Shown piece by piece: positions 1,604-13,513 of a stretch of DNA of 49,887 nucleotides. Under the pieces are notes generated by a model. That model did not search any database and had not been told where the DNA came from. It saw nothing but the letters and a program-made list of their open reading frames with translations. Numbering within the stretch: position 1 is the stretch's first letter; every line of letters starts with the position of its first letter. The DNA is taken from positions 1-49,887 of the forward strand of contig JBEVEC010000153.1 of NCBI GenBank assembly GCA_040512975.1. The letters run 5' to 3'. A program made the translations under genes and the position numbers. Source of the DNA: Tardiphaga sp. (GTDB lineage: Bacteria > Pseudomonadota > Alphaproteobacteria > Rhizobiales > Xanthobacteraceae).

Positions 1604-1619
1604 TGGCACGGGTTTCGCT
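1604..1619 (+). promoter_or_regulatory. Sigma54 (-24/-12) promoter of flgFGAH
   Basis: TGGCACGGGTTTCGCT with GG-N10-GC spacing. Predicted +1 is about 1629-1630. Confidence 0.85.
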
Positions 1620-1628
1620 ACTCCTTCT

Positions 1629-1710
1629 GTGAACCGCGGCTTGGGAGAGCTTGAGCGGTTCACGGGATCCACGGTCAGCCTGGGAGGGCGGGTCGCGGAG
1701 CTTAGGGGAG
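1629..1710 (+). ncRNA. Structured 5' leader of flgF, probably the flg-Rhizobiales RNA motif
   Basis: Hairpin 1 has stem GTGAACCGC(1629-1637)/GCGGTTCAC(1655-1663) and loop UGGGAG (1642-1647). Hairpin 2 is GCC-UGGGAG-GGC (1678-1689) within a longer stem. The position upstream of basal-body genes fits the described motif. The family assignment is from memory and was not checked with a covariance model. Confidence 0.7.
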
Positions 1711-1718
1711 ATCAACCG

Positions 1719-2483
1719 ATGGAGAATGCACTTCTCGTCGGCCTGTCGCGCCAGATGACGCTCGAGCGTCAGATGGATGTCGTCGCCAACAATCTTGCGA
1801 ACGTGAACACCGCCGGCTTCAAGGGTGAGAAGTCGCTGTTCGAGGAATATCTCAGCCCGGGCGCCCGCGAGGACAATTTCCGCGGCCGCGATCGCCGCGT
1901 CTCCTTCGTGCAGGACCGCGCCACGCTGCACGACATGGTGAGCGGTCCGGTCGAGCAGACCAAGAACCCGCTCGACGTCGCCATCAAGGGCGACGCCTTC
2001 TTCGCCGTGCAGACCGCCGGCGGCGAGCGCTACACCCGCGACGGCGGCATGCAGATCAACAACCAGGGCCAGCTGGTCAACGTCGCCGGCGCGCCGGTCT
2101 TGGGCACCAACGGCCCGATCGTGTTCCAGCAGACCGACCACGACATCAACATCTCGCCCGACGGCACCGTGACCGTGCTGGAAGGCACCAACCGGGTCGA
2201 CTCGGTACGCGGCAAGCTGCGCATGGTCTCGTTTCCCCAGGCGCAGCAACTCCTAAAGGACGGCAACAACCTGTTCGCGGCCCCCACCGGCGTCACGCCG
2301 CAGGCCTCGACCACCGCGACCGTCAATCAGGGCTTCATCGAAAAGTCGAACGTCAATTCGGTCACCGAAATGACGCGCATGATCGACGTCAGCCGCGCCT
2401 ACACGAACATCTCGGCGATGTTGAACGCGCAGGCCGACCTGCAGAGGTCGGCGATCACCAAACTCGCTGACGTTCCGACCTAA
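1719..2483 (+). CDS. flgF: Flagellar basal-body rod protein FlgF
   Basis: VVANNLANVNTAGFK, PLDVAIKG, YTRDG and EKSNVN motifs. RBS GGGGAG precedes ATG 1719. Confidence 0.95.
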   Translation: MENALLVGLSRQMTLERQMDVVANNLANVNTAGFKGEKSLFEEYLSPGAREDNFRGRDRRVSFVQDRATLHDMVSGPVEQTKNPLDVAIKGDAFFAVQTAGGERYTRDGGMQINNQGQLVNVAGAPVLGTNGPIVFQQTDHDINISPDGTVTVLEGTNRVDSVRGKLRMVSFPQAQQLLKDGNNLFAAPTGVTPQASTTATVNQGFIEKSNVNSVTEMTRMIDVSRAYTNISAMLNAQADLQRSAITKLADVPT

Positions 2484-2494
2484 GGACCCCAACC

Positions 2495-3283
2495 ATGCGC
2501 GCTCTTTACACCGCAGCGACGGGGATGGCGGCCCAGGAACTCAACGTCCAGGTCATCTCCAACAATATCGCCAACATGCGTACCACCGGCTACAAAAAGC
2601 AGCGGGCCGCATTCCAGGACCTGATCTACGACCACATCACCCGCGTCGGCGCCCAGGCGTCGGACCAGGGCACGATGATCCCGGTCGGCGTCGACATCGG
2701 CGGCGGCGTGAAGACCGTCGGCACCCCGCGTTTGATGACCCAGGGCACGCTGTCGACCACCGGCGGCGACCTCGACGTCGCCGTGCGCGGCGAGGGCTTC
2801 TTCAAGATCCAGATGACCGACGGCACCTTCACCTATACCCGTGACGGTACGTTCTCGCTGGACTCGCAGGGCCGCATCGTCAACGCCCAGGGCAACCTGC
2901 TGCAGCCGACCATCACCGTTCCGACGGGCGCCTCGCAGCTCACCATCAATGCCGGCGGCTCGGTCTCGGTGCTGGTGCCCGGTTCGACCACGCCTACCGT
3001 GCTCGGCACCATCAGCCTGACGCGCTTCATCAACAAGGCCGGCCTCAGCCCGATCGGCGACAACAATTTCGTGGAATCGCCGGCCTCCGGCGCGCCGCAG
3101 GACGGCGTCGCCAATGCCGACGGCTTCGGCGATCTGCAGCAGCGCAATCTCGAACAGGCCAATGTCGAAGTCGTCACTGAAATCTCCGACCTGATCGCCG
3201 CCCAGCGCGCCTACGAGATGAACGCCAAGGTGATCAGCGCCGCCGACCAGATGCTGCAGTCCGCATCCGCCATGTTCCGCTGA
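2495..3283 (+). CDS. flgG: Flagellar basal-body distal rod protein FlgG
   Basis: MRALYTAATGM, ISNNIANMRTTGYKK, YTRDG, LEQANVEVV and AQRAYEMN motifs. Confidence 0.97.
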   Translation: MRALYTAATGMAAQELNVQVISNNIANMRTTGYKKQRAAFQDLIYDHITRVGAQASDQGTMIPVGVDIGGGVKTVGTPRLMTQGTLSTTGGDLDVAVRGEGFFKIQMTDGTFTYTRDGTFSLDSQGRIVNAQGNLLQPTITVPTGASQLTINAGGSVSVLVPGSTTPTVLGTISLTRFINKAGLSPIGDNNFVESPASGAPQDGVANADGFGDLQQRNLEQANVEVVTEISDLIAAQRAYEMNAKVISAADQMLQSASAMFR

Positions 3284-3288
3284 GGACG

Positions 3289-4401
3289 ATGATCATGACC
3301 ATCACCATGCGCTCCCTGCTGCTGGCCTCCGCGCTGCTCACCGCCGGCGCCACCGCGGCGCTCGGCCAGGCCCGCACCGGCGACCCGATCGCAGCACCCG
3401 TGCTGCGCGCCAATGTCGTCGTCACCGGCGACGTGGTGCGGATCGGCGACGTGATCGACAATGCCGGCCCGACCGCGAACATCGCGATCTACCGCGCCCC
3501 CGATCTCGGCACCATCGGCACGCTGCCGACCGCCCAGGTCATCGCGGCGCTGCGCGCGCATCAGGTGATCGGTGTCGACACCGGCGACCTGCGCACGATT
3601 TCGGTAACCCGGCAGTCGCGCAGCATCGACTCCCGCGACATCCAGAATGAGATCGCCTCCGCGCTCGAGCATCGCAACGGCCTCGGCGACGGCGCCAACC
3701 TTACGGTGACCTTCGACAACGACGTCCAGACCCTGCAGCTCGACGCTGCCAACACCGGCGCGCTGGAGCCCGTCGCGACGCGCTACGACACGCGTAGCGG
3801 GCGCTTCGACATCACCTTCACGATCGGCAACGACAACAACGCGCCGGCGATGAAGCTGCGCTTCACCGGCACCGCCATCGAGACCGTCGAAGCCGCCGTG
3901 CTGGCCCGCGCCCTTGATCGCAATGAAATCGTCAAGGCCTCCGACGTCATCGTCGAGCGGCGGCCGAAATCCGAAGTCGGCAATGACGCCGCGACCCGCG
4001 ACCGCGCCGTCGGCCTCCAGACCCGCCGCGCGCTGCGCGCAGGACAAGCCATCCGCGTCGCCGATCTCGCCAAGCCGGACCTCGTGGTGCGCGACCAGCC
4101 GGTGACCCTGATCTACGAGTCCGCCGGACTGTACCTCACCATCCGCGGCAAGGCCGTGGAGTCCGGCACCGAAGGCGACGTCGTCAATGTACTGAACCTG
4201 CAGTCGAAGCGGACCGTCGCCGGCGTCGTGGTCGGCCGCGGCCAGGTCGCCGTCTCCGCCCCGACGCCGCGCCTGCCGATGAACGCCTCTCCCAATGTTG
4301 CCCCTGCCGCCGACGCTCCCCCGGCCAAGCTCTCCCAGGCAACAGCACCGGTGGCGGTCGCCGCCAACGAACCGAAGCCCGTTTCCCGTAGAGCCGAGTA
4401 A
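3289..4401 (+). CDS. flgA: Flagellar P-ring formation chaperone FlgA
   Basis: Signal peptide and a SAF-like C-terminal region (LVVRDQPVTL...GKAVESGTEGDVVNVLNLQSKR). Located between flgG and flgH, with an Ala/Pro-rich tail. Confidence 0.9.
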   Translation: MIMTITMRSLLLASALLTAGATAALGQARTGDPIAAPVLRANVVVTGDVVRIGDVIDNAGPTANIAIYRAPDLGTIGTLPTAQVIAALRAHQVIGVDTGDLRTISVTRQSRSIDSRDIQNEIASALEHRNGLGDGANLTVTFDNDVQTLQLDAANTGALEPVATRYDTRSGRFDITFTIGNDNNAPAMKLRFTGTAIETVEAAVLARALDRNEIVKASDVIVERRPKSEVGNDAATRDRAVGLQTRRALRAGQAIRVADLAKPDLVVRDQPVTLIYESAGLYLTIRGKAVESGTEGDVVNVLNLQSKRTVAGVVVGRGQVAVSAPTPRLPMNASPNVAPAADAPPAKLSQATAPVAVAANEPKPVSRRAE

Positions 4402-4406
4402 AACCG

Positions 4407-5159
4407 ATGTTGTCCTTCAATCGCTCGTTTTCGACCGCCGCAGCATTGCTCGCGACCGGGCTTGCCGCGTCGGGCTGCTCGTCGATCGACCGCCTCGCTT
4501 CGATCGGCGAGAAGCCGGCGCTGAGCGCGATCGAGAACCCGACGGCGCAGCCCGGCTACAAGCCGGTGCAGATGCCGATGCCGACGCCGGAAGTCGCGTC
4601 CTACAACGCCAACTCGCTGTGGCGCAACGGATCGCGCGCCTTCTTCAAGGACCAGCGCGCGCGGCAGATCGGCGACATCCTCACCATCACGGTGAACTTC
4701 ACCGACAAGGCCAATATCGCCAACGAAACCCAGCGCAGCCGCACCTCGTCGGAAGATTCGGGCATCACCGATTTCGCCGGCAGCAAGCTGCTCAGCGGCT
4801 CCGCCGCATCGGTGCTGCCGGGCCGCCTGCTGAGCGCCGACGGCTCCTCGTCGAGCGACGGCAAGGGCTCGGTGGCGCGCCAGGAAAACCTGCAGACCAG
4901 CGTCGCCGCCGTGGTCACACAGCTATTGCCCAACGGCAACCTGGTGGTCGAAGGCAAGCAGGAGATCCGCGTCAATTACGAAATCCGCGAACTGATCGTG
5001 GCCGGCATCGTGCGTCCGGAGGACATCCAGAGCGACAACACCATCGACAGTTCGAAGATCGCGCAGGCCCGCATTGCCTATGGCGGCCGCGGCCAGATCA
5101 CCGACGTCCAGCAACCGCGTTACGGCCAGCAGGTGATGGACGTGCTGCTGCCGTTCTAA
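4407..5159 (+). CDS. flgH: Flagellar L-ring lipoprotein FlgH
   Basis: Lipobox (AASGC), FFKDQRARQIGDILTI, LPNGNLVVEG and GIVRPEDI motifs, ending LPF. Confidence 0.97.
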   Translation: MLSFNRSFSTAAALLATGLAASGCSSIDRLASIGEKPALSAIENPTAQPGYKPVQMPMPTPEVASYNANSLWRNGSRAFFKDQRARQIGDILTITVNFTDKANIANETQRSRTSSEDSGITDFAGSKLLSGSAASVLPGRLLSADGSSSSDGKGSVARQENLQTSVAAVVTQLLPNGNLVVEGKQEIRVNYEIRELIVAGIVRPEDIQSDNTIDSSKIAQARIAYGGRGQITDVQQPRYGQQVMDVLLPF

Positions 5160-5255
5160 CGCTCACGAGCTCCCACATGGCATCGTGCTCCCACGCGATG
5201 CGGTGTACCAAGCGACGACCTCCGGCAGCTCCCCTGCCGGGGGTCGTTGTTGTTT
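5160..5255 (+). ncRNA. Candidate 3'-UTR structured RNA with CUCCC loops, ending in the flgFGAH intrinsic terminator
   Basis: CTCCCA at 5170-5175. Hairpin GCATCGTG-CTCCCA-CGCGATGC at 5180-5201. Terminator-like hairpin at 5212-5250 with loop CTCCC, followed by a T-rich tract. G-U pairs favour the + strand. Confidence 0.5.
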
Positions 5256-5271
5256 GGGGGAAGAAGATGCC

Positions 5272-5357
5272 GTAGCCCGGATGGAGCGTAGCGCAATCCG
5301 GGACTCACCCATCGCAGAGCCGCTGTCCCGGATTGCGCTACGCTCCATCCGGGCTAC
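5272..5357. repeat. Inverted pair of GTAG-family REP elements
   Basis: GTAGCCCGGATGGAGCGTAGCGCAATCCGGGA ... TCCCGGATTGCGCTACGCTCCATCCGGGCTAC, a perfect inverted repeat between convergent genes. Confidence 0.9.
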
Positions 5358-5360
5358 AGG

Positions 5361-6149
5361 TCACGCCTTGAAATCGACCGTCACACGGCCGAGGCCAGAC
5401 AACTCCAACACGACATCATCGCCGGGACTGAGCCAAATCGTCTGCACCAGGCTGCCGGTCAGCACGAACTCACCCTTGCGCAACGCTCTGCCGTGAGCGG
5501 CAAGATGATTGGCGAGCCAGGCCAGCGCATGATGCGGATGGCCGAGCACATCGGCGCCGGTGCCGCGCCCGGTCTCCACGCCGTTGATAACAGCGCGGCC
5601 GACGACCGAGGTGAGATCCGGCGCCTGCGCGCGCGGCACGGCCATGCCAAGTACGCAGCCGGCGGCAAAGAAATCATCCGCGATCAGCGTCGCGGCATCC
5701 ATGCCGCGCCAGTCGGCATAGCGGTCGTCGACGATCTCGATCGCGGGAAAATACGCCTCGATGAATGGCGCGACATTGTCCGCGGTGAACGGCTCGGCGG
5801 AGGCCACGAGATCGCTGCCCATCCGCACGGCGATCTCGCATTCGACACCGACGCGGACGTAGTCGCCGTAACGCAGCGACGCGCCGGAGGCGTGCACGCC
5901 GGCCATGTAGAGACCGCCGGCGCAAGGGTGTTCGATGCCGAGATAGTGCTGCATGACGGCGCTGGTGCAGCCGATCTTGTAGCCGACCTGGGCGCCGAAA
6001 TCCGGCGACAGCAGATGGTGCAGCGCGTCCTGGACGCGGTAGCCGTCGGCCTCGTCATGCGGGACGCCGTCGGGCGGCAGCGGCGCCAGTGCGGTGCGGT
6101 TGAGGCGGACGTATGCGAGGATTTCGGCGATCGCCAGATGCTTTTCCAT
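5361..6149 (-). CDS. 2-keto-4-pentenoate hydratase / fumarylacetoacetate hydrolase family protein
   Basis: GYKIGCTS, VECEIA, PAIEIVDDR, LGHP..ALAWLAN and VLTGS motifs. Start is 6149 or 6152. Confidence 0.88.
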   Translation of the reverse strand: MEKHLAIAEILAYVRLNRTALAPLPPDGVPHDEADGYRVQDALHHLLSPDFGAQVGYKIGCTSAVMQHYLGIEHPCAGGLYMAGVHASGASLRYGDYVRVGVECEIAVRMGSDLVASAEPFTADNVAPFIEAYFPAIEIVDDRYADWRGMDAATLIADDFFAAGCVLGMAVPRAQAPDLTSVVGRAVINGVETGRGTGADVLGHPHHALAWLANHLAAHGRALRKGEFVLTGSLVQTIWLSPGDDVVLELSGLGRVTVDFKA

Positions 6150-6244
6150 CATGTCCCCCACCGGCCGACGCTGGCGCGCCGTTCAGGACAAAGAGGTAGC
6201 GGCGTCTGCCGGGCTTGGCAATGCAGAGGCGATCGGCGCGTCGG

Positions 6245-6508
6245 CTAGCCAAACACCCGGGTGAGATCCTCATGCAACCGCCGCATGCCGGCGGGACCGG
6301 TGAAGATTTCCTTCACCTCGGCCAGCGCTTCGGTGGTCAGGCTTTCCTCGGACCGCGCACCTAGGGCCGCCGTGGCCAGAATACGCGATGCGATGGCTGC
6401 CTGGTTGCACGACGTCCGGTGCTGCGCCGGCACTTTGGCGACCACCTTCTGCAGCACGTTCCGCATTAAGGCGATGGTGTCGGGATCGTAAGATGCGGCA
6501 AGGGGCAT
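6245..6508 (-). CDS. Small helical hypothetical protein (87 aa)
   Basis: Strong RBS GGAGG before MPLAASYDPDTIALMRNVL...IASRILATAALGAR. Resembles small unknown proteins common in Bradyrhizobiaceae. Confidence 0.7.
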   Translation of the reverse strand: MPLAASYDPDTIALMRNVLQKVVAKVPAQHRTSCNQAAIASRILATAALGARSEESLTTEALAEVKEIFTGPAGMRRLHEDLTRVFG

Positions 6509-6713
6509 GGGTTTGTCCTCCCGTTTTGTTATCGTTATCTTTAAAGCCATTGCCAGATCGTTGCGCTCATATTTGCGTGTTTAACGATCGGGCAGATCTT
6601 TGGGTGCGACTGTATATGCGTGTCGAAGTGTGACAGTCGTGTCATCTGAGACTCGAATATCGGAAGAAAATCGGACCGAAACGGTATCACGCTGCTGCGT
6701 TGGGAAATGACAG

Positions 6714-7991
6714 ATGCCGAACATCGATCGTCGCGCTCTTTTGCTGGCAGGCGCAGGCCTTCTGGCAATGCCAGGACGCGCGGCGGCGGGCGTGCCCCAG
6801 AGCGCCGAAGGTACATTCGGCGACAGTGTCGGCGTCAACGTCCACCTCAGCAGCGAGCCCTATTGCAACGACGTCGGTCGCCTGCGCCAGCGTCTTGCTG
6901 ACAGCGGCATCCGGCATCTGCGCGACGAGCTGCGCCCGTCCAACGACATCGGGCAGTGGCGCGCGCTGCACGCCGATCTCGGCATCCGCTTCAATGTCGT
7001 GGTCTCGCCCGCCACCAACACGGTCGCGGAGATGATGGCCTATCTCGACGCGCTCGGCCTCCCCTGCGTGTCCGCCATCGAGGGCCAGAACGAAGGCGAC
7101 AGCGACTGGTTCATGTCGCTGCCGCTCGCCAAGCCCGACTGGACCAAGACGGTGATCGACTATCAGAAGGCATTTCATCAGGCCCTGCGCGCACGCCCGG
7201 ATACCCAGGCGCTGCCGGTCCTGTCGCCGAGCGTGATCGACTGGAAGCCCGCCGACGCCGTGTTGCTGCGCCCGGCCGCCGACTTCTGCGACATCGTGGC
7301 GCTGCATCCCTACGTGCAGCGCGGCCAGGAGCCGGAAACCAATGACGACTACGCGTCGATCGCCTGGTACCTGCACCACATGCGCGACGCCTTCAAACCG
7401 GGCGCTGCGGTGATGGCGACCGAGACCGGTTATTGCAATGCCATTACCACGCCGGGCAGCGGCGTCTCGGAGCGCGCCGCTGCGATCTATCTGCCGCGCA
7501 TGCTGCTGAACAACTATCAACTCGGGATACGCCGCAGCTTCATGTATGAATTCATGAACGGCGGCACCGATCCCAAAGACGGCGAGCAGAACTGGGGACT
7601 GCTGCACAGCGACAGCGCGCCTAAACCGTCCTATCATGCCATCCGGCGGCTCCTCGCCGCGCTGGGCAATGCCCGCATCATGCCCGGCCTCGACAATGGA
7701 TTTAATATCATGGCCCGCTCACCGCGCGCCGACCTGCGGCAGATCGCTCTGCAGGATGACGCCGGCCGCCGCATCCTCGCCCTCTGGCACGCCGCGCGCA
7801 GCTGGGATGCACCGCACGCGCGCGATATCGAGGTCGACGCGCAGCCCGTCGAGATCAACGGCGACGGACGCCCGACGGCGGCATCAATGAACATTCCCAA
7901 CGACGATGACCAGTGGCGCGATCTCGTGCCATCGCAAACCGGCATCACCGTCCCCGTCGCCGACAAGGTCGTTCTGCTACGCCTGGCGTGA
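6714..7991 (+). CDS. Tat-exported clan GH-A-like glycoside hydrolase
   Basis: Twin-arginine signal (IDRRALLLAGAG...AAA). NE acid/base motif (EGQNE), HPY, nucleophile-like ATETGY and WGLL...PKPSY. Confidence 0.75.
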   Translation: MPNIDRRALLLAGAGLLAMPGRAAAGVPQSAEGTFGDSVGVNVHLSSEPYCNDVGRLRQRLADSGIRHLRDELRPSNDIGQWRALHADLGIRFNVVVSPATNTVAEMMAYLDALGLPCVSAIEGQNEGDSDWFMSLPLAKPDWTKTVIDYQKAFHQALRARPDTQALPVLSPSVIDWKPADAVLLRPAADFCDIVALHPYVQRGQEPETNDDYASIAWYLHHMRDAFKPGAAVMATETGYCNAITTPGSGVSERAAAIYLPRMLLNNYQLGIRRSFMYEFMNGGTDPKDGEQNWGLLHSDSAPKPSYHAIRRLLAALGNARIMPGLDNGFNIMARSPRADLRQIALQDDAGRRILALWHAARSWDAPHARDIEVDAQPVEINGDGRPTAASMNIPNDDDQWRDLVPSQTGITVPVADKVVLLRLA

Positions 7992-8230
7992 GCGCGCTGC
8001 ATCTGCCGCAGCTCCTCGCCTTGCGGCGCTTGCAGGACGCGAACTCGTCCAGGGCATCTGTCAGGGGAGGCATATTACCTTGCTCGCCCGACCGGCAGCC
8101 CGAATGAGAGCAATAGGCAAGGATCAGCCTTAAATCGGCACGCGGTCGGAGGCCGGACACACTAGATGATCTCTTGTCGAGTGGCGCAACCGCCTTGGAC
8201 AGAATTCGGCCAGCAAGAAAGATGATCCCC

Positions 8231-8983
8231 ATGAAATTATCCGGAAAAATCGCCGTCGTGACCGGCGCATCGAGTGGCATCGGTGCCGGCATTGCAAAGG
8301 CGCTCGCGGCTGAAGGCGCCACGGTCGCCGTCAACTATTCCACCAGCCAGGCCGGCGCCGACGCTGTCGTCGCCGCGATCAAAGCTGCCGGCGGGACGGC
8401 GATGGCCATCCAAGCGGACATGAGCCGATCCGCTGACGTCGCCCGGCTGTTTGACCAGGTGATCGCCGATCACGGCAGGCTGGACATATTGGTGAACAAT
8501 GCCGGCGTCGCGGTGTTTGAGATGGTCACCGACATGACGGAAGATGCTTTTCACAAGCAGTTCAACATCAACGTGCTCGGCTATTTTCTGGCGATCCGCG
8601 AAGCGGTGAAGCATTTCGGCGCCGCCGGCGGCAGCATCGTCAATATCAGTTCGATCCTCAGCACCGACCCCTATCCCGCATCGAGCGTCTATGCGGCGAC
8701 GAAGGGCGCCGTGGATACCATGACCTTCGCGCTGGCCCGCGAACTCGGGCCGCGCAACATCCGCGTCAACGCGATCCTGCCGGGCCACACCAACACGCCC
8801 GCGACCGACGGCAACTTTGCCGGCGAATTCGGCAAGACGCTGATTGCCGGCACGCCGCTTGGCCGCTTCGGCGAACCCGAGGACATTGCGCCGGTCGCGG
8901 TGTTCCTGGCGTCCGAGGATTCGCACTGGGTCACCGGTGAGTCGCTTCGTGCTGCCGGCGGCGTTCGCGGCGTGGGTTACTAG
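8231..8983 (+). CDS. Short-chain dehydrogenase/reductase
   Basis: TGASSGIG, NNAG, YAATK and PLGRFGEPEDIA motifs. Confidence 0.93.
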   Translation: MKLSGKIAVVTGASSGIGAGIAKALAAEGATVAVNYSTSQAGADAVVAAIKAAGGTAMAIQADMSRSADVARLFDQVIADHGRLDILVNNAGVAVFEMVTDMTEDAFHKQFNINVLGYFLAIREAVKHFGAAGGSIVNISSILSTDPYPASSVYAATKGAVDTMTFALARELGPRNIRVNAILPGHTNTPATDGNFAGEFGKTLIAGTPLGRFGEPEDIAPVAVFLASEDSHWVTGESLRAAGGVRGVGY

Positions 8984-9049
8984 CCGGCGTTCTGCTCGAC
9001 GCGCGTGGCGGCGTCCGGGTCGAACCGGACGCCGCCACATGTCGACAGG

Positions 9050-9355
9050 TCAGGCGATCAGCGCGTGCCGGACCGGAGAGACCGACCAGCTGACCGTGGA
9101 CTGATCGATCGCCGCGTGGACCGGCGAATGCGCCATCTCGGTGACAACGCCCGCTGCGGCCTTGCGGCCTGCTTTGGCCGAAGCCCAGACCAGCACGTCG
9201 ACGACCGTGCCATCTGCGCGCTGGCAGATCCGGCGGGAGACGAAACCCGGCTGATCGATCAGCCAGGCATCGATGTCCTCGTTGGCCTTGATGAAGCCCC
9301 TCATGGTCAAACCGGCTGCGAGGCGGAAGGTCGTGACCTCGACGGCTTCGGTCAT
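9050..9355 (-). CDS. Small hypothetical protein, probable dimeric alpha-beta barrel (ABM-like)
   Basis: MTEAVEVTTFRL...WLIDQPGFVSRR...DVLVWAS. Its start overlaps the upstream stop (ATGA), indicating translational coupling. Confidence 0.7.
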   Translation of the reverse strand: MTEAVEVTTFRLAAGLTMRGFIKANEDIDAWLIDQPGFVSRRICQRADGTVVDVLVWASAKAGRKAAAGVVTEMAHSPVHAAIDQSTVSWSVSPVRHALIA

Positions 9356-10365
9356 GACGGGTTGCCCATCCGACGGACACCCGCGGTCCCGTCCGAGATC
9401 CGCGTGTCGGCAATGGTTTCCGCAAAGCCGTTGCCGAACAGGCCGGCCGGAGTCTGGAAGCCGGGACGCCGTTCGCCAGCGAGCACCCGGCGGGCTGCCT
9501 CTGCGGAAGCCATCGGCGTGAACGTGTAGCCGTTGACGGTATCCAGCACCTCGCGGACGATCGTCCCGTCTGCGCCCGTCACTTCGACTGCCGCCTGGTA
9601 GCGGTTGGCGTCGCGCTGTTCGGCAGTCGGGCCATCGGGCCATGCCGACATGTCTCCGTCAGGAAATGCGCCTCCTGATACATGAACGAAGGTCTCGATG
9701 TCTGGAATGGTCGTTGCGCGGTGGATGGTCAGAAGATCCGACAGCGTCACCGGAAAGCAGGACGCGGCGCCTGCGCCGAAATCGAAGTCCCGAAGCTCCT
9801 GCGGACTGCGGGCCACCAGTTTTCCTCCGACCAGCCGGAGGCAGTCGGTCATGTTTTCCGTAGCGCTAATGGCCGATCCCCGCGACATCGGGCCCGTCAC
9901 ATGAAGCGCGATGCGGATCTGCGTCGGCTCGGCGACACGATGCGCAGCGTGCCCGGCAAGGCATCCAAGCATGGCGACGCTGCCGCCGCTGCCTGGCAAC
10001 AGCAACACGCCGGCAACCTTGGCCTCCTGGTCGAGCGCGTCGGCCAACGTGTAGCTGTCGAGTTCGGCGGCGATGTCGAGATAGTCGGTGCCGCAACGGA
10101 TCGCCGCCTTCATGAACGGCTTTGCCGTGCGCAGATAAGGCCCGGCGCAGTTCAGCAGAACCGAGATGCCGGAGAGCGCCGCGTCGATTCCGGCCGCGTC
10201 CTCGACGTCAAACACGCGATACTTCACGCCCAGTGTGGCGGCGAGCTGCTTGAGCGGCGCCTCGGCACGACCTGCGATGACGAGATCAAGCCGGGCGGTT
10301 TTCGCATGTTCGGCCGCCATGCGACCGGTGTAGCCGGTAGCACCGTAGATCATCATTGTTTTCAT
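9352..10365 (-). CDS. Saccharopine dehydrogenase-like NAD(P)-dependent oxidoreductase
   Basis: IYGATGYTG, LNCAGPY, YLDIAAE, NGYTFT and GFQTPA motifs. Confidence 0.88.
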   Translation of the reverse strand: MKTMMIYGATGYTGRMAAEHAKTARLDLVIAGRAEAPLKQLAATLGVKYRVFDVEDAAGIDAALSGISVLLNCAGPYLRTAKPFMKAAIRCGTDYLDIAAELDSYTLADALDQEAKVAGVLLLPGSGGSVAMLGCLAGHAAHRVAEPTQIRIALHVTGPMSRGSAISATENMTDCLRLVGGKLVARSPQELRDFDFGAGAASCFPVTLSDLLTIHRATTIPDIETFVHVSGGAFPDGDMSAWPDGPTAEQRDANRYQAAVEVTGADGTIVREVLDTVNGYTFTPMASAEAARRVLAGERRPGFQTPAGLFGNGFAETIADTRISDGTAGVRRMGNPS

Positions 10366-10388
10366 GTGCTGTTACTCTGTCGTTGGTT

Positions 10389-11132
10389 TCAGATGACGTA
10401 GCCGCCGGCGATCTCGATGGTCTGCGCATTGACCCACGCATTGTCATCGGACAGCAGGCTGGCGATCACACGCCCGACGTCGTCAGGCTCGCCGACGCGC
10501 CCGAGTGCGGTCTGCCCGGCCAGCAGCGTTTCGAATTCGTCATTCAGGCCACCGCCGAGCTCGGTGCGGATCGCGCCGGGCGCCACCGCATTGGCGCGGA
10601 TGCGGCGCGCGCCGAATTCCTTGGCCATGTAGCGCGTCAGCACTTCAAGGCCGCCCTTGAAGGTCGCGTAAGGCGCCACGCCGGCGGTCGCCACGCGCGC
10701 CGTCGCGCTTGAAACGTTCACGATGTGGCCGCCGTCGGCCATCAGCGGCAACAGCGTCTGCGTCAGGAAGAACGGTCCCTTGAGGTGCACATTGAACAGG
10801 CCGTCGAACTCGGCCTCGCTCACCGTGGCGATCGGATTGTAGAGCCCGTAGCCCGCATTGTTGACGAGGTGGTCGAAGTCCATTCGATTCCAGTTCGCGG
10901 CAAGGGCCCCGGCGACGGCGTCGCGAAACGCTGTGAACGACGCGACATCCGCGACGTCAATTTTCAGCGCGACTGCCTTGCCTCCTTCTGCCTGCACGGC
11001 ACGCACGACCTCGTCCGCACCTTCCGGATGGCTGTTGTAGGTGATGATGACATCGCCGCCGCACCGTGCGCATTGCAGGGCCATGCTGCGCCCGAGGCCG
11101 CGGCTTCCGCCAGTGATGATAGTGATTGCCAT
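10389..11132 (-). CDS. Short-chain dehydrogenase/reductase
   Basis: ITGGSRGLG, NNAG, YATFK and ALGRVGEPDD motifs. Start set at MAITII (11132). Confidence 0.92.
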   Translation of the reverse strand: MAITIITGGSRGLGRSMALQCARCGGDVIITYNSHPEGADEVVRAVQAEGGKAVALKIDVADVASFTAFRDAVAGALAANWNRMDFDHLVNNAGYGLYNPIATVSEAEFDGLFNVHLKGPFFLTQTLLPLMADGGHIVNVSSATARVATAGVAPYATFKGGLEVLTRYMAKEFGARRIRANAVAPGAIRTELGGGLNDEFETLLAGQTALGRVGEPDDVGRVIASLLSDDNAWVNAQTIEIAGGYVI

Positions 11133-11265
11133 GTATCGTGCTCCGTATTGTCGATGGCTCAGAGGTACAGCGAAGCCGTGACCGACACCGTCCCCGATCC
11201 TGCCGCGATCTTGCCCATTCCTGCTTTCCGCTTGCGCCTGGCGCCGCGTTGGGCGCAGGTGACGC

Positions 11266-12153
11266 ATGGAAACACGATTGACAGAGCTGCGCGCCTTGGC
11301 GGCGCACGCGCAGAACCGGCGCACCGAAACCGGCATCCCGCGCGTCGCCATGGTGCAGGGTCAGATTCCCGAACATCAACTGGCCGCGGTCTACGACCCG
11401 ATGGTCAACCTGATCCTGCAGGGCTCGAAGTCGATGACGATCGGCGATCGCACGCTGCGCTACGATCCGGCGAGCTATTTTGTGATGTCGATCGATCTGC
11501 CCGCAGTCGGCGCGATCCATGCGGCAACGACCGGTGAGCCTTATCTCGCCGTGAGTCTGACCATCGACCCGAAAGTCGTGGCGCCGATGCTGGCGGACGC
11601 GCCGCCGCCCGATCCGTCCGCGGAGGCCAGACATGGTTTCTCGGTCGCATCGGTCACGCCCGTCATGCTCGACGCCTGGGTCCGGATGCTCCGGCTGATG
11701 GAATCTCCTGCAGACATTCCAGTGCTCGCGCCTGCCTATGAGCGGGAGATCCTATACCGCGTGCTGCAGGGTCCCCATGGCTGGATGCTGCGCGACATCG
11801 CCGTGCCGGACACCGCCCTGTCGCGGGTCCGCCTCGCCATCCAGTGGATCCGCAACAATTTTCGCGATCAGTTGCGCGTCGACAGCCTGGCCGAAATGGC
11901 TGCGATGAGCACCTCCGCCTTTCACCGCCACTTCAAGGCAGCAACTGCGATGAGCCCGCTGCAGTTTCAGAAGCAGATACGCCTGTTGCAGGCGCGCATG
12001 CTGCTGATCGCGGGAGCCCCGACGGCATCCTCGGTGGCGTTTGACGTCGGATACGAAAGCGCCTCGCAGTTCAGCCGCGAATATGCGCGCTTCTTTGGTC
12101 TGCCCCCGGCAAGCGACGTGCTCGCAGTGCAACGCTATATCGGCCGCGGCTAG
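11266..12153 (+). CDS. AraC-family transcriptional regulator (YqhC-like)
   Basis: ILQGSK N-terminal domain and C-terminal HTH (MSTSAFHRHFK...SPLQFQK...VGYESASQFSREY). Divergent from the SDR operon. Confidence 0.93.
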   Translation: METRLTELRALAAHAQNRRTETGIPRVAMVQGQIPEHQLAAVYDPMVNLILQGSKSMTIGDRTLRYDPASYFVMSIDLPAVGAIHAATTGEPYLAVSLTIDPKVVAPMLADAPPPDPSAEARHGFSVASVTPVMLDAWVRMLRLMESPADIPVLAPAYEREILYRVLQGPHGWMLRDIAVPDTALSRVRLAIQWIRNNFRDQLRVDSLAEMAAMSTSAFHRHFKAATAMSPLQFQKQIRLLQARMLLIAGAPTASSVAFDVGYESASQFSREYARFFGLPPASDVLAVQRYIGRG

Positions 12154-13432: not shown

Positions 13433-13448
13433 TGGCACAGGCCTCGCA
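13433..13448 (+). promoter_or_regulatory. Sigma54 promoter of the flgI operon
   Basis: TGGCACAGGCCTCGCA with GG-N10-GC spacing. An IHF-like TATCATGCACTTA lies just upstream. Confidence 0.85.
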
Positions 13449-13513
13449 TAGGGATGGCTGGACCGTGGTCATGGGAGTGACCGCAGGACCGGGACCTCAG
13501 CGGGGAGCAGAGG

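What the first reader, a model, noticed from the sequence alone, without database searches (positions are those of the whole stretch)
1629..5255. Complementary hairpin loops at both ends of the flgFGAH transcript: candidate kissing-loop or 3'-UTR sRNA circuit
Seen in sequence: the flgF leader carries UGGGAG in two hairpin loops (1642-1647, 1681-1686) and GGGGAG at the RBS (1705-1710). Immediately after the flgH stop there are three complementary motifs: CUCCCA (5170-5175), CUCCCA as the loop of GCAUCGUG/CGCGAUGC (5188-5193), and CUCCC(C) as the loop of the terminator hairpin (5229-5234). That is a 3-for-3 match, and G-U pairs in the stems indicate both elements fold on the + strand. Established: the flg-Rhizobiales motif is a flagellar leader RNA whose partner I do not know to have been identified, and rhizobial sRNAs such as AbcR1 use exposed CUCCCA anti-SD loops. 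Inference: the operon 3' end, either in cis (end-to-end pairing) or as a processed ~95-nt sRNA, is the partner of the leader. That would give feedback on rod/ring translation or mRNA stability.
Basis: partly seen in the sequence, partly recalled or inferred. Interest (0 to 1): 0.9.

Follow-up and report, generated by a model that had tools for sequence, protein, structure and literature searches.

The report
Flagellar operon's matching 3' RNA clamp
A flagellar operon in Rhizobiales bacteria ends in a conserved, uncatalogued RNA structure whose C-rich arms match G-rich sites at the start of the same mRNA and come and go with them across genomes, so it likely binds that start and is predicted to throttle the first gene.

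Summary
The flgF leader is the orphan Rfam motif flg-Rhizobiales. Behind flgH lies a conserved RNA with no Rfam match: a single-stranded CUCCC arm, a middle hairpin, and a terminator with a CUCCC loop. Both ends carry at least two sites in 98 of 101 family operons; 2 lost both. In 57 order-wide operons picked without looking at UTRs, 24 have both, 25 neither and 8 one. None of 29 operons outside the order has the 3' element. Flanking letters covary in the registers SD-terminator loop and leader loop-arm; phylogenetically independent tests point the same way but are underpowered. Correction: the 3-for-3 match is rare in the family (6 of 92). In 74 of 92 the middle loop holds a palindrome (11 hexamers), which predicts homodimers. 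The separate flgI leader has the same sites, suggesting action in trans. Best reading: a CarZ/icaR-like multivalent anti-SD autoregulator that damps FlgF. No RNA-level evidence for a free sRNA or for pairing was obtained.

The parts
1604..1619 (+). sigma54-type -24/-12 promoter (GG-N10-GC); inferred start of transcription about 1630, at the foot of leader hairpin P1
   Evidence: sequence; same motif upstream of nearly all orthologous leaders; start site inferred from consensus spacing (recalled), not mapped
1630..1718 (+). flgF leader = flg-Rhizobiales RNA (RF01736; the model runs on to 1764)
   Evidence: 110.7 bits, cut-off 55
1642..1647 (+). leader site 1, UGGGAG (GGGA loop of P1, closed by U-G)
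1681..1686 (+). leader site 2, UGGGAG (loop of P2)
1704..1710 (+). leader site 3, AGGGGAG = flgF Shine-Dalgarno; 7-bp complement of the terminator loop region
1719..2483 (+). flgF (proximal rod); name from operon context and recalled homology
   Evidence: ORF; orthologues; flgFGAH cluster named in PMC6406911 passage
2495..3283 (+). flgG (distal rod)
   Evidence: ORF; name recalled from sequence and context
3289..4401 (+). flgA (P-ring chaperone)
   Evidence: ORF; name recalled from sequence and context
4407..5159 (+). flgH (L ring), last gene of the operon
   Evidence: ORF; orthologues
5166..5175 (+). 3' arm M1: conserved GAG-CUCCC(A/C), single-stranded anti-SD-like motif
5176..5205 (+). middle hairpin H1; loop CUCCCA (5188-5193) in this genus, a 6-nt palindrome in most relatives
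5211..5255 (+). intrinsic-terminator-like hairpin (18-bp stem 5211-5228/5234-5251) with CUCCC pentaloop 5229-5233 and U-rich tail
13433..13513 (+). flgI sigma54-type promoter and leader with hairpin loop UGGGAG (13472-13477) and GGGGAG (13502-13507): candidate second target, in trans

Best explanation
The 3' end of the flgFGAH operon is a conserved structured RNA whose exposed CUCCC arms likely base-pair, several at once, with the GGGAG sites of the flgF leader and are predicted to lower flgF translation as negative feedback from the operon's own output. Shown here: the element, its structure, its exclusive position behind this flgH, and its co-variation with the leader. Inferred: it acts after full-length transcription, probably as a stable terminator-protected 3' fragment of about 90 nt working in trans, though end-to-end pairing in cis is possible. 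The leader loops serve as docking sites, and the terminator loop covers the SD. Single contacts are weak (5-7 bp) and specificity comes from multivalency. The likely purpose is to make less FlgF than FlgG and FlgH and to damp the sigma54 burst; the flgI leader is a likely second target. In most of the family the middle loop is a palindrome that would dimerise the RNA into a four-armed clamp; this genus uses a third CUCCCA arm instead.
For: Co-occurrence: 98 of 101 family operons have at least 2 sites at both ends, 2 have neither; in the order-wide set 24 both, 25 neither, 7 3'-only, 1 leader-only of 57 (rho 0.85); among the 39 with GC at least 55%, 22/9/7/1. Reverse-sense controls are near zero. 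Co-losses with intact tree neighbours: L110 (sister L088) and L139 (sister L143, same genus). Compensation cases: L089 leader loops GGGAA twice plus SD GGGAG versus 3' UUCCC twice plus terminator CUCCC; L162, L269, L306, L310 similar. Register: Watson-Crick pairing beside the core exceeds re-pairing expectation for SD-terminator (100 vs 86.5; 52 vs 33.7 of 108) and P1-arm (61 vs 46.5), not for the crossed registers (19 vs 16.9; 52 vs 50.7); tree-paired SD-terminator cognates beat swaps 28 to 14, p 0.044 uncorrected. Short two-site leaders go with compact elements whose two loops lie 32-40 nt apart. Stems: 15 of 17 pairs have double changes, 98% paired. flgF ranks 2 of 3006 for three-site binding but 50 for one site. 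Salmonella stoichiometry 5 FlgF, 24 FlgG, 26 FlgH (PMC11673145 passages). Precedents CarZ and icaR.
Against: No direct RNA evidence: four RNA-seq contig sets show no separate piece for the element (weak test), and the B. diazoefficiens dRNA-seq table lists no + strand start over the operon, not even flgF's own. Independent-pair tests are underpowered: 8 supported pairs, 4.3 same way, 0.0 opposite, median p 0.125; the P1-arm sister test is null (21 vs 16, p 0.51); 11 of 16 genomes with a GGGAA leader site have no exposed UUCCC. Outside the family the last leader site lies at SD distance in only 18 of 49, so SD occlusion is not universal. The direction of the effect is taken from precedent only. 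The P1 loop is a GGGA tetraloop with only 4 free bases. G049 lost the element but keeps GGGAG at flgI.
Confidence: 0.55

Rival explanations
1. The two ends pair, but the result is not repression of flgF. Either a closed loop marks and stabilises or activates only full-length transcripts, or the leader loops act as a sponge that holds the 3' anti-SD RNA away from the SD or from other targets such as flgI, giving a threshold or timer.
For: All co-variation evidence fits equally. In 31 of 49 out-of-family leaders the last site is more than 10 nt from the start codon, and several have a separate SD. Two of the three sites are decoy-like loops far from the SD.
Against: In the family the last site is the SD in 98 of 99, and the best-supported register is SD with terminator loop. 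Known bacterial cases of this layout repress.
Confidence: 0.25
2. The 3' RNA is a general anti-SD sRNA (AbcR or cuckoo style) with many targets, and flgF is only one of them or incidental.
For: CUCCCA is the AbcR M1 seed. 188 genes here have a GGGAG SD and 49 outrank flgF on one site. flgI leaders carry the site in 22 of 25 family genomes.
Against: It is lost together with the flgF leader sites and not found in 15 genomes that hold only the distant flgH. It has decayed in a genome where flgH was not found (G047). flgF is unique for three sites.
Confidence: 0.1
3. No RNA-RNA pairing: an RNA-binding protein reads the GGGA loops (CsrA-like), or the loops are standby sites for the 30S anti-SD, and the C-rich loops serve another protein in the same pathway, so both are kept or lost together.
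For: GGA in hairpin loops plus SD is the recalled CsrA pattern; shared pathway membership alone can give co-occurrence; phylogenetic tests of letter covariation are weak.
Against: CsrA (PF02599) not found in 0 of 16 genomes that carry the element, with controls positive. It does not explain exact complementarity, matched letter changes such as L089, or matched architecture.
Confidence: 0.08
4. Chance or repeat artefact: C-rich loops in a terminator or REP-like repeat that happen to match an SD.
For: The genome has repeats rich in CUCCC and GGGAG, and a repeat follows the terminator at 5269-5362.
Against: Single copy per genome and always behind this flgH; kept at constant internal spacing although inserts put it 11 to 209 nt from the stop; 79 of 81 loci match the model and the two misses are the co-losses.
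Confidence: 0.02

Closest known systems
flg-Rhizobiales RNA motif (Rfam RF01736; Weinberg et al. 2010, PMC2864571)
   Same: The leader is a full member. The paper lists it as probable cis-regulatory RNA (table passage and supplement rows seen).
   Different: No partner appears in the passages and supplement hits I saw; the narrative supplement was not found by my terms. The leader is wider and more varied than the Rfam model: short one-hairpin forms score under the cut-off or are missed.
CarZ and OppZ, 3' UTR-derived autoregulatory sRNAs of Vibrio cholerae (PMC7398697; abstract and CarZ section read)
   Same: An RNA at the operon's 3' end, ending in the terminator, complementary to the 5' UTR of the first gene.
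   Different: CarZ is shown to be RNase E-processed and Hfq-bound; neither is tested here. Here there are two or three short loop or arm contacts, dedicated docking hairpins in the target, and a palindromic loop.
Staphylococcus aureus icaR 3' UTR UCCCCUG / SD pairing (PMC3868564; abstract and one discussion section read)
   Same: A C-rich 3' UTR motif pairs with the SD of the same mRNA; nearly the same motif as the terminator loop region here; cis versus trans unresolved there too.
   Different: icaR is one gene with one motif; here the ends are 3.5 kb and four genes apart, the contact is multivalent, and it is conserved over many families of an order.
AbcR1/2 (CUCCCA M1; PMC5461406 passages) and cuckoo sRNAs (CCUCCUCCC loops; PMC4615179 passages)
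   Same: Rhizobial anti-SD motifs exposed in hairpin loops, modular copies.
   Different: Those are independently encoded trans sRNAs; no Rfam match here; the cuckoo motif is absent; this element is tied to flgH.
Retroviral dimerisation-initiation hairpins (palindromic kissing loops; PMC4588261 abstract start in search listing)
   Same: GC-rich 6-nt palindrome in a hairpin loop, often after two purines, changing between palindromes.
   Different: Analogy only: dimerisation is untested here and the loop is replaced by CUCCC or lost in 18 of 92 family elements.
6C RNA (RF01066) and Streptomyces Scr3202 (RF02833)
   Same: Two hairpins with C-rich loops; weak hits of 22.5 and 30.3 bits.
   Different: Far below the cut-offs (47, 52); other phylum and context.

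Membership tests
flg-Rhizobiales RNA (leader) | Covariance-model score above the gathering cut-off | tested here: met
   110.7 vs 55 bits
flg-Rhizobiales RNA (leader) | 5' UTR of a flagellar basal-body operon in Rhizobiales | tested here: met
   directly upstream of flgF after a sigma54-type promoter
3' UTR-derived autoregulatory sRNA (CarZ/OppZ type) | Lies in the operon's 3' UTR and ends in its intrinsic terminator | tested here: met
3' UTR-derived autoregulatory sRNA (CarZ/OppZ type) | Conserved complementarity to the translation-initiation region of its own operon | tested here: met
   SD-range in 98 of 99 family leaders but 18 of 49 others
3' UTR-derived autoregulatory sRNA (CarZ/OppZ type) | Accumulates as a separate, RNase E-processed stable RNA | tested here: inconclusive
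   only assembled contigs were available; no own start site listed in dRNA-seq, but flgF's start is missing too
3' UTR-derived autoregulatory sRNA (CarZ/OppZ type) | Hfq binding and repression shown by compensatory mutation | not testable with these tools
   needs experiments
icaR-type 3'-5' UTR pairing | C-rich 3' UTR motif complementary to the same mRNA's SD | tested here: met
   CUCCCCU with AGGGGAG, 7 bp
icaR-type 3'-5' UTR pairing | Blocks 30S loading and creates an RNase III substrate | not testable with these tools
   predicted helices are 5-7 bp, probably too short for RNase III (inference)
cuckoo / alpha-r14 sRNAs | 2-4 hairpins, each with loop CCUCCUCCC | tested here: not met
   loops read CUCCC(A/C) or a palindrome; no Rfam hit
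AbcR / alpha-r15 sRNAs | Rfam model match and independent intergenic gene | tested here: not met
   no match at gathering or E up to 10; always directly behind flgH
CsrA/RsmA target leader | CsrA protein encoded in the genome | tested here: not met
   PF02599 in 0 of 16 genomes, 3 of 14 controls positive
palindromic kissing-loop dimerisation hairpin | Self-complementary hexamer in the loop, kept through sequence change | tested here: met
   74 of 92 family elements, 11 hexamers, at least 26 changes on the tree; not in the window's own genus
palindromic kissing-loop dimerisation hairpin | Forms dimers | not testable with these tools
   needs native gels

The most novel reading that the evidence does not exclude
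A self-assembling RNA clamp: the 3' RNA dimerises through a palindromic kissing loop and uses four anti-SD arms to grip the three G-rich sites of the flgF leader (and the flgI leader). This would give cooperative, concentration-dependent feedback, or join rod and ring mRNAs into oligomers. Arm number is reached either by dimerisation or, as in this genus, by turning the palindrome into a third CUCCC. I found no bacterial regulator of this design in the searches.
Probability: 0.3. Interest if true: 0.92.

Novelty: new variant of a known kind. Interest (0 to 1): 0.78.

Why it matters
It supplies a concrete, testable partner and mechanism for a riboregulator listed without one since 2010, and adds an uncatalogued RNA family found in many families of Rhizobiales, including Bradyrhizobium (7 of 7 named loci). 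It would be a post-transcriptional feedback on the rod and ring step of the sigma54 flagellar cascade, and would extend the icaR/CarZ principle to a multivalent end-to-end contact over a 3.5-kb operon. The conserved palindromic loop points to functional dimerisation of a bacterial regulatory RNA, which is rarely documented.

Tried and rejected
RNA-seq: one search returned only assembled contigs with a small share of words. Four runs from four studies laid on L174 cover the flgH end and the element in one contig each and run on past the terminator; this shows nothing about a free sRNA, its ends or its level. B. diazoefficiens dRNA-seq table: no + strand start between 6,396,159 and 6,400,214; uninformative because flgF's start is also missing. 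Methylorubrum start-site table: the flgF operon could not be placed. Idea that the palindromic loop pairs with the leader loops: possible for CCUAGG by wobble, but not for CGCGCG, GCGCGC, UCCGGA, UGCGCA or GGUACC (by inspection), so self-complementarity is the conserved property. Idea that palindromes occur exactly where leaders have three sites and elements two: not tight (L104, L105, L107, L125, L168 lack one; L088, L109, L115 have one with two-site leaders). Idea that they are DNA-level perfect inverted repeats: 49 of 74 are off the stem's centre. G282, first noted as a co-loss, is a divergent variant with G-runs and C-runs. Minus-strand decoy RNA with GGGAG loops: fold, G-U pairs and U tail favour +. 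Model R1 misses short-type elements (G022, G059, G035), so its blanks are not absences for that type. Earlier scan findings: four look-ups returned nothing.
Full report
Observation. The leader is RF01736 flg-Rhizobiales at 110.7 bits, the only Rfam match in the window. It follows a GG-N10-GC sigma54-type promoter at 1604-1619, which places the inferred start at about 1630, the first base of hairpin P1. The 3' region folds on the + strand (z -5.59; reverse complement -2.60) into a free arm (CUCCCA 5170-5175), a middle hairpin (loop CUCCCA 5188-5193) and an 18-bp terminator hairpin with a CUCCC pentaloop. It has no Rfam match at gathering score; the best weak hits over it are Scr3202 (30.3 of 52 bits) and 6C (22.5 of 47). 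With a rough gene call of 3006 genes, flgF is the only one with three GGGAG before its start, and 8 genes have three CUCCC after the stop, most of the others being a self-pairing repeat.

Conservation of the 3' element. I fetched 104 family operons, taken from the top of the flgH hit list, plus 16 order-level regions chosen by weak leader-model hits. The layout GAG-CUCCC arm, hairpin, terminator with CUCCC loop recurs almost everywhere, 11 to 209 nt after the stop because repeats insert in between. A model from 68 sequences hit 79 of 81 loci given; the misses are L110 and L139 (many of these loci were in the training set). On the fitted alignment 98.1% of cells pair and 15 of 17 pairs have double changes, above all shuffles and slid controls (the alignment leans towards the model). 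In 56 whole genomes the model found 17: one copy each (two in tandem in G005), next to this flgH in all but G047. It found none in 15 genomes that hold only the distant, lateral-type flgH. Of 20 genomes without a flgH hit, 2 matched: G010 behind a flgH fragment at a contig end, and G047, a decayed copy that has lost both CUCCC. All 7 named Bradyrhizobium loci carry it.

Co-occurrence with the leader. Of 105 family operons (window included), 101 had both ends readable; L074, L092, L118 (contig ends) and L112 (no promoter found) were dropped. 98 have at least two sites at both ends, 2 have none at either, and 1 (L089) is a variant. The two losses, L110 and L139, sit beside intact sisters L088 and L143 on the FlgG+FlgH tree. 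I then took 60 operons from other families of the order, chosen for family spread without looking at UTRs; 57 were readable (L273, L308, L316 dropped): 24 both, 25 neither, 7 3'-only, 1 leader-only, rho 0.85; among the 39 with GC of 55% or more, 22, 9, 7 and 1. Reverse-sense motifs are near absent (mean 0.0 and 0.18). None of 29 flgH 3' regions from other orders of the class has two motifs in 200 nt; 8 have one. Kin are not independent: on well-supported branches there are only 8 independent pairs, 4.3 going the same way and 0.0 the other, median p 0.125; on all branches 13 pairs, 7.5 and 0. The direction is consistent but the formal test is underpowered.

Covariation between the ends. In 108 operons, Watson-Crick pairing next to the 5-bp core exceeds the re-pairing expectation for SD with terminator loop (100 vs 86.5, then 52 vs 33.7) and for P1 with arm (61 vs 46.5), but not for the crossed registers. 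Tree-paired cognate versus swapped energies favour cognates for SD-terminator (28 vs 14, p 0.044, one of four tests, uncorrected) and not for P1-arm (21 vs 16, p 0.51). L089 changed both leader loops to GGGAA and both upstream 3' sites to UUCCC while SD and terminator loop stayed canonical; L162, L269, L306 and L310 show similar matches. Against this, 11 of 16 genomes with a GGGAA site have no exposed UUCCC. Eleven family operons with short two-site leaders have compact elements with two C-rich loops 32-40 nt apart.

Correction to 3-for-3, and a new feature. The middle loop is C-rich in only 6 of 92 long-type family elements (this genus, L089, L118). In 74 it holds a 6-nt palindrome of 11 kinds, with at least 26 changes between palindromes on the tree; 12 have neither. 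One call (L108) lies in the stem and is a false positive. In the wider set 70 of 86 loops have one against a shuffle mean of 14.2 (max 28), and 85 of 607 genomic hairpins. 49 of 74 lie off the stem's centre and 28 follow AA. This is the layout of a self-kissing dimerisation loop (analogy; listing only). Several other families have three C-rich sites, as this genus does.

Second target. A second sigma54-type leader in the window, before flgI (13459-13513), has a UGGGAG hairpin loop and a GGGGAG site. At least one GGGAG is present in 22 of 25 family flgI leaders and 1 of 11 outside the family (counted by eye), against 188 of 3006 genes genome-wide and 14 of 101 flgG SDs. G084 lost it along with the element; G049 did not. 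flgI is on another transcript, so this leans towards action in trans.

Mechanism. Accessibility-weighted energies give -6.8 kcal/mol for a leader loop with the middle loop and -6.1 for SD with terminator loop. flgF ranks 50 of 3006 on one site and 2 on the sum of three, behind a spurious ORF in a repeat; flgI ranks 58 (a simple additive score that ignores geometry). So specificity needs multivalency. Repression is inferred from SD coverage (98 of 99 family leaders), from CarZ and icaR (PMC7398697 abstract and CarZ section; PMC3868564 abstract and one discussion section), and from need: 5 FlgF against 24 FlgG and 26 FlgH in Salmonella (PMC11673145 passages). Outside the family only 18 of 49 last sites are at SD distance, which keeps the closed-loop or sponge rival alive. 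CsrA was not found in 16 genomes with the element. RNA data did not decide anything.

Prior knowledge. The motif name occurs in 2 papers of the library. In Weinberg 2010 I saw the table passage and supplement hits only; its narrative supplement did not come up and may say more. Searches on flgH/flgF with sRNA terms for Bradyrhizobium, Caulobacter and Rhodopseudomonas, and on anti-SD CUCCC sRNAs, listed no paper on this element (listings only). Subscription journals are largely not covered. Gene names and the sigma54 consensus are recalled, supported by operon context (PMC6406911 passage).

Verdict. A real, conserved and apparently uncatalogued 3' RNA that very probably pairs with the flg-Rhizobiales leader (about 0.8 for pairing, 0.55 for repression as the outcome). 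It is a new variant of 3' UTR autoregulation, with multivalent docking and a predicted dimerisation loop as its distinctive features. Interest 0.78.

Noticed in passing
window 5269-5362: Long perfect hairpin (z -13) right after the terminator; a REP-like repeat with about 60 similar loci in this genome. Related repeats often sit between the flgH stop and the element in relatives.
   Followed up: partly
window 5361-12153: About 7 kb of non-flagellar genes (hydratase-like, dehydrogenases, AraC-type regulator, glycoside-hydrolase-like; names recalled) lie between flgH and dksA, whereas many relatives have dksA directly convergent with flgH.
   Followed up: no
L228 (G047:C5:221533-221623): Decayed copy of the element without either CUCCC, beside what looks like a fliP fragment, in a 95% complete genome where flgH was not found: possible relic of a deleted flagellar cluster.
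   Followed up: partly
L160 (G253), L154 (G262), L119 (G005): Tandem duplications of the terminator module behind flgH.
   Followed up: no
L260, L278, L281, L282, L285, L287, L296: In several families the flgH 3' region is expanded to 5-9 C-rich sites in arrays of hairpins against two leader sites.
   Followed up: no
L211 / G063:C19:245654-246751: flgI is split into four pieces in G063 while the flgFGAH operon and both RNA elements look intact.
   Followed up: no
L300, L302 (family f9): The sigma54-type promoter lies so close to flgF that the mRNA would be leaderless; these genomes also lack the 3' element.
   Followed up: no
window 4289-4336: Three CUCCC in the flgA 3' coding region just before flgH; conservation not checked.
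   Followed up: no
PMC4842269 supplement 5, positions 6,396,159-6,407,366: No start site is listed for either GGGAG-loop leader (flgF, flgI) although neighbouring flagellar genes have one; may reflect structured or rapidly processed 5' ends. A minus-strand start at 6,400,214 points towards the element.
   Followed up: no
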